Origin: a virus
Direction: 5' to 3' (one strand)
Virus record (IMG/VR): IMGVR_UViG_3300006615_000024
Length of the DNA stretch: 64,000 nucleotides
The notes beneath the pieces were generated by a model. It had not been told where the DNA came from, did no database searches, and saw nothing but the letters and a program-made list of their open reading frames with translations. Each line of letters begins with the position of its first letter. The first letter of the stretch is position 1. This document shows positions 49,690-54,504 of the stretch, piece after piece. A program made the position numbers and the translations under genes.

Positions 49690-49736
49690 AATTACAACCA
49701 TATGGTAGGCCACTTTGTCGGCATCCCCATATATAC
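49690..49736 (+). promoter_or_regulatory. Composite palindrome/promoter copy A (left arm degenerate)
   Basis: ACCATATGGT-N5-ACTTTGT-N6-CCCCATATATAC. Confidence 0.7.
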
Positions 49737-49739
49737 TAA

Positions 49740-49990
49740 AAAAATAAATGGTTGAATTGGCTTTCCCTGCTTTCATATCATGTTGACTGTAAAATAATAA
49801 CATATCGTCATATGCTTTCTCTTGCAGTCTCAGAAGCGTGGTTCAGGTTTCAGGACAAGACCTCTTTCCTTGTCGCGCCAATGTTCCACATCCTAAGCGT
49901 TCAACCAGCCGGATGTTCTAAACAAACCCATACAGGCGTTAGCCGCTAAGGTATGTCCATTAAAACGGAAGGCATTTCACCCTTCCTTGT
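49740..49990 (-). ncRNA. Candidate structured RNA (about 245 nt)
   Basis: Own CCCC-ATATAT promoter at about 50012-50022, four hairpins, T-rich end, no ORF. Confidence 0.4.
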
Positions 49991-50234
49991 TTGGAAATAT
50001 GTGGGGGTCGTAATATATGGGGCTTCGGTGAACGGAGATATTTTTTCGTTCTCTAAGCAGTGGGAAGTTTGTTGTTCAATCATGCTCAACCGATTAATTA
50101 TACACAACTGTTCTAGAATAGTTAGTATATGTCGTTGAGATTAGAGAGGATACAAGAACAAACGTTCTGACAAATCCTAGAGTGGGATAAATCCTGTGAT
50201 TTCATCCAATCCACTTTCAGCCCCATATGGGAAT

Positions 50235-50420
50235 CTAATTATTTTGGTTTAGTATTTCATTGAATACATTGATTGCTGAATGCAACTCTTCTAATGCCTT
50301 GGCTAAGTCATCACCTTTGACCTTTAGGCTTTTGATTACTAATACTTGGTGTGAACCTGATTTAGAGTGACCAACTTCTAATTCATAAGGGTAAACCTTG
50401 CCTTCAATAAGTCTTGACAT
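50235..50420 (-). CDS. Hypothetical protein (61 aa), probably leaderless
   Basis: ATG 27 nt downstream of the minus-strand ATATAT box of copy B. Confidence 0.55.
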   Translation of the reverse strand: MSRLIEGKVYPYELEVGHSKSGSHQVLVIKSLKVKGDDLAKALEELHSAINVFNEILNQNN

Positions 50421-50440
50421 ATTATATATGGCACTTATCT

Positions 50441-50514
50441 GATATATGGGGTGATTCTGACAAAGTAGCCCCACCATATGGTACAATACTTTGTGAACAG
50501 TACCCTACATATAC
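50441..50514. promoter_or_regulatory. Composite palindrome copy B, bidirectional promoter
   Basis: ACAAAGT-N6-ACCATATGGT-N5-ACTTTGT, with a CCC(C)-AT-rich box beyond each arm. Confidence 0.75.
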
Positions 50515-50535
50515 CGATATTTCATGATATATACC

Positions 50536-50796
50536 ATGTCAAGCGTGATATATCAGGTGAATAAGAATACTGAAGATGGTAAAATATCGAGAGGATTGTA
50601 TCAGAGAGAAAGAGTTGCATTAGCAGAATGCAAACGTCTCAATGATAGAGTCATACTTTTACTAACTAGAGAATTAGCAACATTGAGTGGAGCAATGCGA
50701 GGAAATGGTGTACCAAGAAGGATAGAAATTGAAAATATACTAACTAACCTACCCTATTCAGTTACCGAACTCAGCGTTAACGACCAATGGCGTTAA
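50536..50796 (+). CDS. Hypothetical early protein (86 aa)
   Basis: ATG about 29 nt after the TATA-like box of copy B. Confidence 0.55.
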   Translation: MSSVIYQVNKNTEDGKISRGLYQRERVALAECKRLNDRVILLLTRELATLSGAMRGNGVPRRIEIENILTNLPYSVTELSVNDQWR

Positions 50797-50798
50797 AT

Positions 50799-50830
50799 CC
50801 AATAATTTGGCCTTCGGGTCATTTTATTGG
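50799..50830 (+). terminator. Hairpin with a cUUCGg loop after the cassette gene
   Basis: CCAATAA..TGGCC TTCG GGTCA..TTATTGG. Confidence 0.55.
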
Positions 50831-50941
50831 GGTTTAACTTCCCAAAGGAACGTACCAACCATATGCTTGTGTTAATATTTACATATTTTCCCTCTTGCCC
50901 TCCGACAGTCGTTTTTTCACAAACCTTCGTTTATTTCTATT

Positions 50942-50982
50942 ACCATATGGTTGTAGCACTTTGTAGCAGAAACCCCATATAC
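50942..50982 (+). promoter_or_regulatory. Composite palindrome/promoter copy C (no left arm)
   Basis: ACCATATGGT-N6-ACTTTGT-N8-CCCCATATAC. Confidence 0.7.
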
Positions 50983-51050
50983 CGATATAACCAATATAAT
51001 ATTGCTTAGAAGGGTTTGAGAAAACCTATCTATCTTAACAGGTGATATAA

Positions 51051-52175: not shown

Positions 52176-52180
52176 TTAAA

Positions 52181-52907
52181 ATGGCAACGAGAGAAGATAG
52201 AAGACCTTGGGAAGTAGTATTGAAAGAGTGGCAGATAAAATGTATCTATGAAAGGATATATTCACGTAATCCGTCATTAAGAAATTGTTACCGTACTAGT
52301 TCGTTAATTAAAGAGGTGTGGTTAAAATGAGATGTGGTGAATGTAATACTATAATTGATGAGGACTGTATGTTTGAGCGTAGGGATTTCAATATGATTAC
52401 TAGAAAACCTATGACTATGATTTGGTATGTGTGCAGTAATGAAATATGCGGAGTGTGTTTACCTTGGGAATGAAAATATTAAATTGGTGCATTAATGCAG
52501 AATTAGAGAATGGTGAAAGAATAAACATAGCAACTATACCCGATGATATAGCACAAATGATTGATGAATACCTTTCTGAATTGGAGGCAGATTAAATGAG
52601 TTTTAAGACGATAGAAGGACATGACTGCCACCCCGATGCGATTGAGTGTTGTGGTGATTGCTTGAAGTTAAATGGATATGATGTATTATGATGAAATTAG
52701 TTTTGAGAGTAGAAACAAAGGAGTATGTCTTTGAGAGGTGGAATTATGCGTGATAGGAGTAATGCATTACCGGAGGATAGTTTGCCTTCTTGGGTTTTCT
52801 ATACTGAAGAATGTCCTGTATGTGGAGAAACTATTGATGAAGGGTATAATTACAGTGAATATGATATTTCAGTTTGTGACCCTGATGATTGCGGAGAAGA
52901 AGAGTAA
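52181..52907 (+). other. Chain of six overlapping micro-ORFs (52181-52330, 52327-52473, 52470-52595, 52596-52691, 52688-52753, 52746-52907)
   Basis: Manual translation; consecutive ATGA/TAAATG junctions; three are Cys-rich. Confidence 0.5.
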
Positions 52908-52933
52908 GACTCTTCCTCCCATCAGGTATGATG

Positions 52934-52990
52934 ACAAAGTATCCTACCATATGGTATGAACTACTTTGTGAATCTGAATACCCTATATAC
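52934..52990 (+). promoter_or_regulatory. Composite palindrome/promoter copy E
   Basis: ACAAAGT-N5-ACCATATGGT-N7-ACTTTGT-N11-CCCTATATAC. Confidence 0.75.
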
Positions 52991-53025
52991 CCCCAAAACG
53001 TCAGATATAGTAGGAGACACCCATT

Positions 53026-53562
53026 ATGACAGATGATAAGTGGAATAATTTTGAAACAACAGTGAAAACGTGGCAGAAAGCCAATAAGGGTTGGAATGAC
53101 GAAGGTCATGACAACTATTCAGAGGATTTAGATTCTCTGACTACTCTTATGAAGAAAGGTAAGAAAAATAAAGACCGAAGAAGTAGAATCATGTCTACTG
53201 TTCGAACTCTCTTCATGGATATAACAAGTAGCCCCTTCAAAACAGGCAAGGCTTCAACAATGGATTCAAAACTTCTTGAAGACTATAATTTAGACAGAGC
53301 AGAAGCACGAACTGCTCTAATGACTCTTTGGAACATTGAGTTTTTCCGAAGATTCGCAGTAAGGAGTAAGAGAGGCGGTGGCGGAGTTTTTGCCGATGCT
53401 GAAACTTTCGCAGATTACGAACTCGCTTCATTTGATGCTAGAGTTCACAGCGCAATACGTGGTAGTTCAAAAGACTATCAATACGTTAAGGGTAAGGCTT
53501 TGAAGAACTTAATTGTTCAAAAAGTGGTGGAAACACCCGAAGCACCCTCAACAACCGAGTAA
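53026..53562 (+). CDS. Hypothetical early protein, paralogue of 51051..51524
   Basis: AGGAGA SD; shared motif with 51051..51524. Confidence 0.7.
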   Translation: MTDDKWNNFETTVKTWQKANKGWNDEGHDNYSEDLDSLTTLMKKGKKNKDRRSRIMSTVRTLFMDITSSPFKTGKASTMDSKLLEDYNLDRAEARTALMTLWNIEFFRRFAVRSKRGGGGVFADAETFADYELASFDARVHSAIRGSSKDYQYVKGKALKNLIVQKVVETPEAPSTTE

Positions 53563-53576
53563 ACACGCAAAACCCC

Positions 53577-53606
53577 GTAGGGGGGGTCAGAAATGGCCTC
53601 CTCTAC
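53577..53606 (+). terminator. GC-rich hairpin with a GAAA loop
   Basis: GTAGGGGGGGTCA-GAAA-TGGCCTCCTCTAC. Confidence 0.6.
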
Positions 53607-53626
53607 ACCTTGGGGTCTTCATAATC

Positions 53627-53684
53627 ACAAAGTAATTACAACCATATGGTAAGAGATACTTTGTTAAACGAGTACCCTATATAC
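53627..53684 (+). promoter_or_regulatory. Composite palindrome/promoter copy F
   Basis: ACAAAGT-N7-ACCATATGGT-N7-ACTTTGT-N10-CCCTATATAC. Confidence 0.75.
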
Positions 53685-53705
53685 TACTTATTCAGAGTAT
53701 GTATC

Positions 53706-54437
53706 ATGTCAGTTAGTTACGTGCAGGATGCCAAATACAAGTATGCAGAAGAAAAGTTGAGCGATAAAGCCTTCTCTAAGTTAGCCTCAAAGTTAGAAGA
53801 CAAAGGTTTGATTCTTTGCTCCTCTTCTCATTATACTAATAATCCTCCGAATGTTACATATGGTTTAGTTGAAGATGTAACTACTAAAACCACTTATCTT
53901 GTTACAATAGACGGTAAGCATGCTATTACTACGGTATACGGCACAGACGCTAGAGCGTGGAAAGAACAATTGACAGAGAACGGTTTCGATTGTGATTATA
54001 CTACTCAAAAGGTTGAGACAACTAAGAGAGTGTGGGCTAAACCTAGAGGGTCTTCTATGTTTATGCATGAATCATTAGGGATTGAGACAGAAAAAACATA
54101 CGATTGCTTGAAACTATGCTATGATGATTCTGTTGTTATGACCCCTACTCTGAGTAATTCTTCTGATGGTCTTATTCTCTTATTTACTACTCGTTGGGAA
54201 ACTGAGAAAGTTGCTAGGAAAGCAGTTATTGAATCTACTATGGTTCAAGCACCATTGGCTGACCTTGGTTTAATTCAGAGTATAGTTGAAGATGCTCTTG
54301 GTATAACTGAGCCTGTCAACATTGACTGTAATTTCAGATGTGAGACATTATCAACATCTGAATGTACTCCCGACATCATTGCAATGAGAAAGCAAGCCTC
54401 TATTGATGCTCGTAATGCCACTCAAGAAGAAGAGTGA
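53706..54437 (+). CDS. Hypothetical early protein (243 aa)
   Basis: ATG 28 nt after the TATA box (the track start at 53646 lies inside the palindrome). Confidence 0.65.
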   Translation: MSVSYVQDAKYKYAEEKLSDKAFSKLASKLEDKGLILCSSSHYTNNPPNVTYGLVEDVTTKTTYLVTIDGKHAITTVYGTDARAWKEQLTENGFDCDYTTQKVETTKRVWAKPRGSSMFMHESLGIETEKTYDCLKLCYDDSVVMTPTLSNSSDGLILLFTTRWETEKVARKAVIESTMVQAPLADLGLIQSIVEDALGITEPVNIDCNFRCETLSTSECTPDIIAMRKQASIDARNATQEEE

Positions 54438-54450
54438 GACGTAACCCATT

Positions 54451-54504
54451 GTCCCGAAAGGGCTTTGTGGTCTATGTAACAAAGTACTCCAACCATATGC
54501 TTTG
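54451..54504 (+). promoter_or_regulatory. GAAA hairpin plus truncated palindrome copy G (end of the array)
   Basis: GTCCC-GAAA-GGGC, then ACAAAGT-N6-ACCATATG joined directly to CTTTG. Confidence 0.55.

What the first reader, a model, noticed from the sequence alone, without database searches (positions are those of the whole stretch)
49690..54504. Array of palindrome-delimited expression cassettes: [ACAAAGT-N5-7-ACCATATGGT-N5-7-ACTTTGT]-promoter-gene(s)-hairpin
Seen: cores at 49697, 50473, 50942, 51628, 52946, 53641 and a truncated one at 54492, spaced 469-1318 nt apart. Each of the six complete cores is followed 6-11 nt after its right arm by CCC-(T/C)ATATA. From B to F, one or more orphan genes and a hairpin precede the next copy. 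Copies A and F share 18 identical nt. Copy B works in both directions. Copy G looks like an internal deletion closing the array. I did not see the motif elsewhere in the window. Established analogies: PeSL cassettes of T4-type phages, and integron attC sites, which fold into interrupted hairpins. Inference: a co-regulated early host-takeover or anti-defence module whose units are shuffled by recombination at the palindromes. The variable arm spacing suits either a cruciform substrate or two separate binders. No integrase is in the window.
Basis: partly seen in the sequence, partly recalled or inferred. Interest (0 to 1): 0.85.

Follow-up and report, generated by a model that had tools for sequence, protein, structure and literature searches.

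The report
Palindrome-tagged promoter cassettes, marine archaeal virus
A marine archaeal virus puts the same palindrome-plus-TATA-box switch in front of a handful of small genes, and related viruses gain, lose and flip those genes exactly at the palindrome, an archaeal counterpart of the shuffled promoter cassettes known from T4-type phages.

Summary
Six ACCATATGGT cores lie at the stated coordinates. Four carry both ACAAAGT/ACTTTGT arms and two only the promoter-side arm. Each is followed by an ACC-C-Y-ATATA box. The core occurs nowhere else in the window.

The window is an archaeal tailed virus of about 93 kb. It resembles a group B magrovirus, with a split PolB and its own TFB. Dozens of related marine viral contigs carry 3-10 copies. 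In five complete genomes every core lies in one 3-4 kb cluster between the replication and structural modules.

Across relatives the box sits 5-12 nt after the arm, and an ATG follows 28-31 nt after the box. That is archaeal promoter geometry for leaderless mRNA. Metatranscriptome contigs lie as separate pieces that begin just after the boxes.

Near-identical relatives differ by whole units inserted, replaced or inverted with junctions in the core. The cassette idea is therefore supported. No integrase or resolvase was found, and the spacers are not complementary, so the integron/cruciform analogy fails. A PeSL-like, homology-driven mechanism fits better.

"Truncated copy G" is a conserved variant that faces the structural genes. 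The binding factor and the gene functions remain unknown. The scan reached the same reading before on another magrovirus (e1-3288950).

The parts
49697..49735 (+). Site A: core 49697-49706, right arm ACTTTGT 49712-49718, box CCCCATATATA 49725-49735. There is no left arm; TTTATTTCTAT lies upstream instead.
49760..50225 (+). RNA-covered stretch downstream of promoter A with no convincing ORF. Its 5' half (49742-50012) is not homologous to the nearest relative. The strand is not established.
   Evidence: contigs 49766-50206/50225 in X5 and X6 with the sequencing adapter abutting at about 49760; contig to 50205 in X2..
50235..50420 (-). Gene Bm, 61 aa (beta-hairpin plus helix). It is leaderless from the leftward box of site B. 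The family has 39 members in relatives.
50443..50513 (.). Site B, two-way: leftward box 50443-50451 (minus strand), left arm 50460-50466, core 50473-50482, right arm 50488-50494, rightward box CCCTACATATA 50503-50513.
50536..50796 (+). Gene B, 86 aa, with its ATG about 27 nt after the middle of the box.
50858..50867 (+). Extra degenerate half-copy ACCATATGCT(TGTG) followed by T-rich sequence.
50942..50981 (+). Site C: core 50942-50951, right arm 50958-50964, box 50973-50981. There is no left arm.
51051..51524 (+). Gene C, 157 aa, all-helical. It belongs to the CE family, the universal cargo of the cluster (130 members; 1-3 copies in 5 of 5 complete genomes).
   Evidence: RNA contigs 51014/17/20 to 51484-51546
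51614..51669 (+). Site D: tripartite palindrome 51614-51649 and box CCCTATATATAC 51658-51669. The ATG is at 51690.
51690..52907 (+). Unit D: seven small genes (D1 103 aa zinc-ribbon, D2 57 aa, and others). Small indels separate it from close relatives.
52934..52989 (+). Site E: tripartite palindrome 52934-52969 and box 52981-52989.
53026..53562 (+). Gene E, 178 aa, a CE-family paralogue of gene C.
   Evidence: RNA contigs 53025/45 to 53559/67
53627..53683 (+). Site F: tripartite palindrome 53627-53664 and box 53675-53683.
53706..54437 (+). Gene F, 243 aa. The family has 26 members in relatives.
   Evidence: RNA contigs from 53721/26
54479..54527 (+). T-type element ('copy G'): left arm 54479-54485, ACCATATG 54492-54499 fused to CTTTG 54500-54504, then T7-A-T3 at 54513-54523. 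It is conserved and points at the structural module.
51550..51608 (+). Terminator-like hairpin between gene C and site D. Similar hairpins lie at 50792-50838, 52881-52926, 53572-53616 and 54439-54477.

Best explanation
The array is a set of virus-specific archaeal promoter modules. Each module has three elements, placed relative to the transcript start:
- a sequence-conserved upstream element at roughly -65 to -40. This is the 10-bp palindrome ACCATATGGT, flanked at 3-9 bp by one or two CAAAG/CTTTG arms. It is most likely the binding site of a dimeric factor that is probably virus-encoded and is not yet identified;
- a non-canonical BRE/TATA box, A-CC-Y-Y-ATA, at about -33 to -25;
- a start about 30 nt further on, often on the ATG itself (leaderless mRNA).

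Each module drives one small gene or a short operon that ends in a hairpin.

A variant module has a half core fused to the arm, with a T-run in place of the box. It sits once at the edge of the cluster facing the structural genes, so the same factor may couple the cluster to late-gene control (inferred).

The same 10-35 bp element is repeated 5-8 times within 4 kb and is its own reverse complement. Recombination between copies therefore deletes, inserts, swaps or inverts whole promoter-gene-terminator units. This recombination is probably homology-driven, as with T4 PeSLs. It would explain the variable region between the replication and morphogenesis modules in this virus family.

Shown: the motif, its conservation, the promoter geometry, RNA pieces that start after the boxes, and junctions at cores. 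Inferred: the binding factor, the temporal class of the genes, and the recombination mechanism.
For: - The motif is far beyond chance and confined to one place.
- In five complete genomes of 93-103 kb, all 5-8 cores lie in a single cluster.
- The tripartite motif is absent from 596 Gb of prokaryote genomes: 2 single hits, which is chance level.
- Of 415 unique half-sites, 155 have the box 5-12 nt after the arm, against 19 in the control. There is an A before the CC in 84%. The ATG peaks 28-31 nt after the start of the box.
- The virus encodes a TFB (Pfam TFIIB zinc ribbon, 7e-8). A TFB homologue is present in 5 of 5 motif-bearing genomes.
- RNA contigs from two studies lie as separate pieces that begin 35-46 nt after the start of each box and end near the hairpins. 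The bins holding site B together with gene B (50411-50811) and the stretch just upstream of site A (49208-49608) have about zero depth. In two runs an adapter abuts the contig at about 49760, 35 nt after the start of box A.
- Clean one-unit indels leave a hybrid site: L096/L116 and L084/L108.
- In 9 of 31 events both junctions lie within 60 bp of a core in both genomes, where random placement would give about 1.
- Inversions are bounded by cores: L030/L078, L042/L114.
- Gene adjacency across a motif is kept less often (0.15-0.23) than within a unit (0.43-0.50).
- Repeated intergenic elements of halovirus HF2 are experimentally proven promoters (PMC8707807). PeSL-mediated shuffling is documented in T4-type phages (PMC2839356, PMC4122927).
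Against: - No DNA-binding protein was identified in or near the cluster. The folds of Bm and CE match nothing informative.
- The variable spacings between core and arm (3-9) and between arm and box (5-12, with no compensation) are unusual for one rigid binder.
- Transcript starts rest on assembled contigs, which cannot prove ends or strand. One contig (X2) crosses site A and one crosses the T-type element.
- About half of the intergenic gaps in a cluster hold a core (58 of 120). The excess of junctions at cores over 'any intergenic gap' is therefore modest, and 12 of 31 events have neither junction near a core.
- BLAST alignments would run up to a conserved core even if the true crossover lay a few bases away.
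Confidence: 0.7

Rival explanations
1. A dedicated site-specific recombination system. The palindromic core would be the crossover site of an unrecognised recombinase, as in an integron, a shufflon or an invertase. The promoters would simply travel inside the cassettes.
For: Junctions of indels and inversions fall within 4-15 nt of the core centre in several independent pairs, and hybrid sites are left behind. The core is invariant while its surroundings vary (220 of 224 two-armed sites have the exact core). A palindromic site allows inversion as well as excision. CE-family proteins of unknown function are in every cluster.
Against: No Phage_integrase, Resolvase, Hjc or Rad51 domain in five complete genomes. 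The fixed geometry relative to a promoter box and the ATG is what a transcription element needs, not a crossover site. Spacers show no structural conservation. 12 of 31 events ignore the cores. The T-type variant sits at a conserved position at the head of the structural block.
Confidence: 0.12
2. A pure operator/promoter regulon with no part in genome plasticity. Junctions fall at cores only because recombinants are viable only when they break in intergenic DNA, and because the conserved core extends alignments.
For: 48% of intergenic gaps in the clusters hold a core. The share of junctions near cores (28 of 62) is about the same. The window and its nearest relative G001 are colinear, and their differences lie away from the palindromes.
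Against: Single-unit indels with 'site-unit-site' in one genome against one hybrid 'site' in the other, in two independent pairs. Inversions end 4-6 nt from cores. Both junctions at cores in both genomes in 9 of 31 events.
Confidence: 0.14
3. Replication-origin elements: initiator-binding repeats next to the origin.
For: The cluster begins about 300 bp from an AT-rich stretch (49220-49340) flanked by GTTTATC/GATAAAC repeats. That stretch looks like an origin and lies between the replication and structural modules.
Against: Each copy is tied to a box and an ATG at promoter distances and is separated from the next by a whole gene. The copies spread over 4 kb, and the RNA pieces start after them. 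The origin-like stretch has its own, different repeats.
Confidence: 0.03

Closest known systems
PeSLs (promoter-early stem-loops) of T4-type phages (Arbiol et al. 2010, PMC2839356; Comeau et al. 2014, PMC4122927)
   Same: A short composite terminator-hairpin plus promoter motif is repeated between small genes of unknown function in a hyperplastic region. Close relatives differ by indels and replacements whose junctions lie in the motif. No dedicated recombinase is involved.
   Different: Here the promoter is archaeal (TATA-like box, leaderless mRNAs), not sigma-70. The conserved part is an upstream 10-bp perfect palindrome with arms at variable spacing, not the hairpin. The palindrome also allows inversions, which are observed. 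All copies lie in one cluster per genome. Mini-circles were not tested.
Intergenic repeat promoters of halovirus HF2, class I and II (Russ, Pfeiffer and Dyall-Smith 2021, PMC8707807)
   Same: Both are archaeal tailed viruses with repeated, genome-unique intergenic elements that contain the TATA box. Some work in both directions. There are distinct classes for early-middle and late regions. Viral regulators are suspected but unknown.
   Different: There is no sequence similarity. The HF2 repeats have a purine-rich BRE and were proven by reporter assay and primer extension, whereas the evidence here is indirect. The HF2 repeats keep conserved genomic positions among relatives, whereas here the units are shuffled.
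Conserved TATA-plus-inverted-repeat motif before most left-arm ORFs of haloarchaeal virus HGTV-1 (Sencilo et al. 2013, as summarised in PMC3950731)
   Same: An archaeal tailed virus in which the authors themselves compared the motif with PeSLs and proposed roles in regulation and shuffling.
   Different: The HGTV-1 motif I recovered (CGAAAGGTTTAAGTAGT, at least 16 copies over 50 kb) is a canonical BRE/TATA spread over a large part of the genome. HGTV-1 has no cluster of the ACCATATGGT core.
Integron attC cassettes
   Same: An array of small gene units separated by imperfect palindromes.
   Different: No integrase. Each unit has its own promoter. The sequence, not the fold, is conserved. The spacers are not complementary and the single-strand fold is weak.

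Membership tests
Archaeal BRE/TATA promoter of leaderless mRNA | AT-rich TATA box centred about 26-27 nt upstream of the transcript start | tested here: met
   The ATG peaks 28-31 nt after the start of the box in relatives. In the window the ATG is 27-29 nt after the box at B(-), B(+), D and F. RNA contigs begin 35-46 nt after the start of the box.
Archaeal BRE/TATA promoter of leaderless mRNA | Purine-rich BRE directly upstream of the TATA box | tested here: not met
   That position holds A-C-C-(C/T), with A at -1 of the box in 84% of cases. HGTV-1, for comparison, has CGAAAGG.
Archaeal BRE/TATA promoter of leaderless mRNA | Mapped 5' ends at the predicted start | tested here: inconclusive
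   Only assembled contigs were available. In two runs an adapter abuts the contig at about 49760. Raw-read or 5'-enriched data were not available.
PeSL-type mobile regulatory cassettes | Composite terminator hairpin plus promoter repeated between small variable genes | tested here: met
   Hairpins of -14 to -36 kcal/mol lie upstream of sites C to G. Boxes lie downstream of each site. The region is variable across relatives.
PeSL-type mobile regulatory cassettes | Indel and replacement junctions between close relatives lie in the motif | tested here: met
   both junctions at cores in 9 of 31 events; hybrid sites in L096/L116 and L084/L108. The enrichment over other intergenic gaps is modest.
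PeSL-type mobile regulatory cassettes | Excised mini-circles carrying one motif | not testable with these tools
   This needs PCR or long reads from an infected culture or a virome.
Integron (attC cassettes) | Adjacent tyrosine recombinase (IntI) and attI | tested here: not met
   PF00589 has 0 hits in 5 complete genomes, while the controls are positive.
Integron (attC cassettes) | Sites conserved in folded structure rather than sequence; promoterless cassettes | tested here: not met
   The core is invariant. Spacer complementarity is 0.31 against a null of 0.35, and only 18% of sites have equal spacer lengths. The fold is -5 to -6.6 kcal/mol. Every unit has its own box.
Invertase / shufflon systems | Serine or tyrosine invertase encoded nearby | tested here: not met
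   PF00239 and PF00589 are absent from five genomes. Inversions between cores are nevertheless seen.
Magrovirus (Poseidoniales virus), group B | Marine tailed archaeal virus of about 90-100 kb with its own replication module and a PolB gene split in the catalytic domain | tested here: met
   PolB lies in two ORFs, 24202-25893 and 23077-23994. The best phage-collection hits are haloarchaeal virus PolBs. The nearest record is 92.7 kb. The description of the split DNAP is in PMC5434244. No phylogeny was made.

The most novel reading that the evidence does not exclude
The invariant 10-bp palindrome is the crossover site of a dedicated, still unrecognised recombination activity of these viruses. 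The ever-present CE-family proteins are one possible source of it. The cluster would then be an archaeal-virus 'shufflon' of self-expressing, invertible and exchangeable gene cassettes, and not merely promoters that happen to recombine.
Probability: 0.12. Interest if true: 0.85.

Novelty: new variant of a known kind. Interest (0 to 1): 0.55.

Why it matters
Magroviruses are among the most abundant archaeal viruses of the surface ocean. Neither they nor their hosts are in culture, and the papers I could read on them say nothing about their promoters or regulation.

This element gives a first concrete cis-regulatory code for the group:
- a searchable marker for the variable region;
- a defined DNA probe (36 bp) with which to look for the regulator;
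- a non-canonical BRE-like sequence that can be tested against the virus's own TFB.

It also shows promoter-mediated modular shuffling, so far documented mainly in T4-type phages, operating in archaeal tailed viruses. Here there is an added feature: because the site is palindromic, cassettes can also be inverted.

Tried and rejected
- DNA search of the phage collection with the region: no match.
- Rfam on 47900-55000: nothing near threshold. No tRNAs.
- PHROGs and Pfam on all cassette proteins and on 20 further small proteins: no DNA-binding domain and no functional hit. The exceptions outside the cluster are TFB, ThiF, a JAB-like protein, an exonuclease and a pyrimidine-dimer glycosylase.
- AlphaFold models of Bm (pLDDT 79.5) and CE (pLDDT 87.0). 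Foldseek against PDB gave no hit with E below 1. VIA-align gave a best Z of 4.4 and 6.7, which is a generic three-helix bundle. The PDB profile search and the Atlas gave nothing.
- The 3383-aa ORF is not recognisably a crAss-type virion RNA polymerase. I dropped my first idea that this is a crAss-like phage.
- Reading arm-core as a symmetric BRE-TATA-BRE: rejected, because the arm lies 9 or more bp from the ATAT centre at a variable distance.
- Cruciform or attC reading: rejected.
- The exact core string in the literature: only cloning primers.
- One paper search was wasted by a loose setting. Sencilo et al. 2013 is not held.

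
Full report
**1. Observation**

- The region 49690-54504 holds six exact copies of the 10-bp palindrome ACCATATGGT, at 49697, 50473, 50942, 51628, 52946 and 53641. 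One-mismatch copies lie at 54492 and 50858.
- Four copies (B, D, E, F) carry both arms, ACAAAGT and ACTTTGT. The spacers are 5-7 nt long and unequal in length. This full pattern is expected 0.00 times by chance.
- Copies A and C have only the arm on the promoter side.
- Exact CCCYATATA occurs seven times in the whole 64-kb window, all between 49725 and 53683.
  - Five of these lie 6-11 nt after a right arm.
  - B's rightward box is the variant CCCTACATATA.
  - B also has a leftward box, with the ATG of a 61-aa gene 27 nt further on.
- Hairpins precede sites C to G.
It missed only the second degenerate copy at 50858.

**2. What the genome is**

- The window carries a replication block on the minus strand (16-49 kb): PolB in two ORFs, a ligase and a ribonucleotide reductase.
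- A TFIIB/TFB homologue lies at 38987-39865.
- A plus-strand block of structural genes runs from about 54.9 kb.
- PolB is nearest to haloarchaeal tailed viruses.
- The nearest held record is a 92.7-kb marine viral contig.
- Size, habitat and a PolB split in the catalytic domain fit group B magroviruses, viruses of the uncultured Poseidoniales (PMC5434244).
- An early idea that this was a crAss-like phage was dropped.

**3. Distribution of the motif**

Dozens of contigs of 90-100 kb carry 3-10 copies close together.
- In five complete or nearly complete genomes the core occurs 5-8 times, always within one stretch of 3-4 kb and nowhere else.
- The tripartite pattern has only two isolated, chance-level hits in 596 Gb of prokaryote genomes. 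It is therefore a private element of this virus lineage.
- In every relative the cluster lies between the replication module and the structural module.

**4. It is a promoter module**

- Among 415 unique half-sites, 155 have a box CC-Y-(Y/A)-A-N-A 5-12 nt after the arm. A control stretch gives 19.
- The box is preceded by A in 84% of cases.
- The first ATG peaks 28-31 nt after the start of the box.
- That is the geometry of an archaeal TATA box at about -26 serving leaderless mRNA. The BRE position holds ACC instead of purines.
- Elsewhere in the window genes sit in long operons with Shine-Dalgarno-like leaders, and no other such boxes exist.

Marine metatranscriptome contigs from two studies lie on the region as separate pieces:

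| Unit | Contig extent |
|---|---|
| After promoter A | about 49760 to 50205-50225 |
| Gene C | 51014-51020 to 51484-51546 |
| Gene E | 53025-53045 to 53559-53567 |
| Gene F | 53721-53726 onward |

- Each piece starts 35-46 nt after the start of a box and ends near a hairpin.
- The bins covering 49208-49608 (just upstream of site A) and 50411-50811 (site B together with gene B) have about zero depth.
- In two runs a sequencing adapter abuts the contig at about 49760.
- Contigs cannot prove ends or strand. One contig crosses site A and one crosses the T-type element. This evidence is supportive, not decisive.

**5. The palindrome is read as sequence, not as a fold**

- In 220 of 224 two-armed sites the central 10-mer is exactly ACCATATGGT.
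- The spacers are not complementary: 0.31 against a null of 0.35.
- Left and right spacer lengths are uncorrelated.
- The spacings from core to arm and from arm to box do not compensate for each other.
- As single strands the elements fold weakly, at -5 to -6.6 kcal/mol.
- This fits recognition of double-stranded DNA by a protein, probably a dimer on the core with separate or flexible contacts to the arms. It does not fit a cruciform or an attC-like hairpin.
- Relative to the start, the core lies at about -65 to -52 and the arm at about -48 to -40.
- No candidate binder was found. The viral TFB co-occurs with the motif in 5 of 5 genomes. It is an obvious candidate reader of the odd ACC 'BRE', but that is inference.

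**6. 'Copy G' is a conserved variant**

- At least 17 relatives carry ACCATATGCTTTG, a half core fused to the arm. It is followed 7-9 nt later by a run such as TTTTTTTTATTTT.
- The T-run sits where the box sits in ordinary sites.
- The variant lies at the edge of the cluster and points at the structural genes.
- The exact string occurs once in 3 of 5 complete genomes.
- It may be the regulated promoter of the late block or a terminator-insulator. I cannot tell which.

**7. The cargo**

- The genes are not orphans within the lineage. Genes C and E belong to one all-helical family (CE) with 130 members in the fetched loci. CE is present in 1-3 copies in 5 of 5 complete genomes, always in or beside the cluster.
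- Bm (61 aa, a beta-hairpin plus a helix) is found in 3 of 5 genomes.
- F, D1 and D2 also recur.
- No function could be assigned. 'Early', 'host takeover' and 'anti-defence' remain untested.

**8. Shuffling**

- Gene order and orientation in the cluster differ widely between relatives.
- Adjacency across a motif is kept in 0.15-0.23 of comparisons, against 0.43-0.50 within a unit.
- Among near relatives (flanks 80-97% identical) I found 31 non-redundant indel or replacement events inside clusters:

| Junctions within 60 bp of a core | Events |
|---|---|
| Both, in both genomes | 9 |
| One | 10 |
| Neither | 12 |

- Two pairs are textbook cases. L116 and L108 each have 'site-unit-site' where L096 and L084 have a single site. 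The left half of that single site matches the first copy and its right half matches the second.
- Inverted segments end 4-6 nt from cores in L030/L078 and L042/L114.
- Caveats:
  - About half of the intergenic gaps in a cluster hold a core (58 of 120), so the excess over 'any intergenic gap' is modest.
  - The window and its nearest relative differ only by changes away from the palindromes.

**9. Mechanism of exchange**

- Five complete genomes lack tyrosine and serine recombinases, Hjc and Rad51/RadA domains.
- With a 10-35 bp identical element repeated 5-8 times, homology-driven exchange is the economical reading. T4 PeSLs work this way (PMC2839356, PMC4122927).
- The palindromic core additionally permits inversion.
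- A dedicated, unrecognised recombinase cannot be excluded. I give that reading 0.12.

**10. Comparison and novelty**

- The closest known systems are T4 PeSLs, the proven intergenic-repeat promoters of halovirus HF2 (PMC8707807), and the HGTV-1 motif that its authors likened to PeSLs (PMC3950731).
- The HGTV-1 motif has a different sequence and a different distribution.
- The magrovirus papers held say nothing on promoters.
It mentioned a palindromic version in relatives, and this window is such a version.
- Verdict: a real, conserved, undescribed variant of a known kind of viral element. Interest is moderate.

Noticed in passing
window 49100-49420: This looks like a replication origin. A very AT-rich stretch (49220-49340) is flanked by inverted GTTTATC/GATAAAC repeats (about 49118, 49144, 49199-49215, 49385-49400). 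It lies between the replication module and the cluster, and RNA depth there is about zero.
   Followed up: partly
window 48426-49096: A stretch free of coding sequence is covered by some of the deepest metatranscriptome contigs laid on the region, in four runs from two studies. Adapters abut at 49069-49096. A strain variant lacks 48570-48722. There is no Rfam match.
   Followed up: partly
window 49742-50230: The unit behind promoter A has no convincing ORF but is covered by RNA contigs. Its first 270 bp are not homologous to the nearest relative, and RNA contigs carry a different 120-nt stretch in place of 49888-49960. A minus-strand CCCCATATA box (50014-50022) points into it.
   Followed up: partly
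window 46656, 46748, 48248, 49673, 50930, 54517, 60104: TTTATTTCT-N-T occurs 7 times against 0.85 expected. Copies lie directly upstream of cores A and C (in place of the left arm), inside the T-type element, and as an inverted pair in the gap 46624-46856. It could be a second promoter class or a terminator signal.
   Followed up: no
window 54896-55537: The first gene after the cluster is replaced by a very distant homologue (34% aa) in relative L035. In one RNA contig it is replaced by 521 different letters, while both flanks stay 97-98% identical. This is a mosaic joint that does not involve a palindrome.
   Followed up: partly
window 3242-13393: A giant 3383-aa ORF has no Pfam or PDB sequence match beyond a weak fibre-like stretch. 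It is probably a structural or tail protein.
   Followed up: no
L131/L132 (HGTV-1, KC292026): The repeated HGTV-1 promoter motif is CGAAAGGTTTAAGTAGT. At least 16 copies lie upstream of minus-strand genes between 40 and 91 kb.
   Followed up: partly
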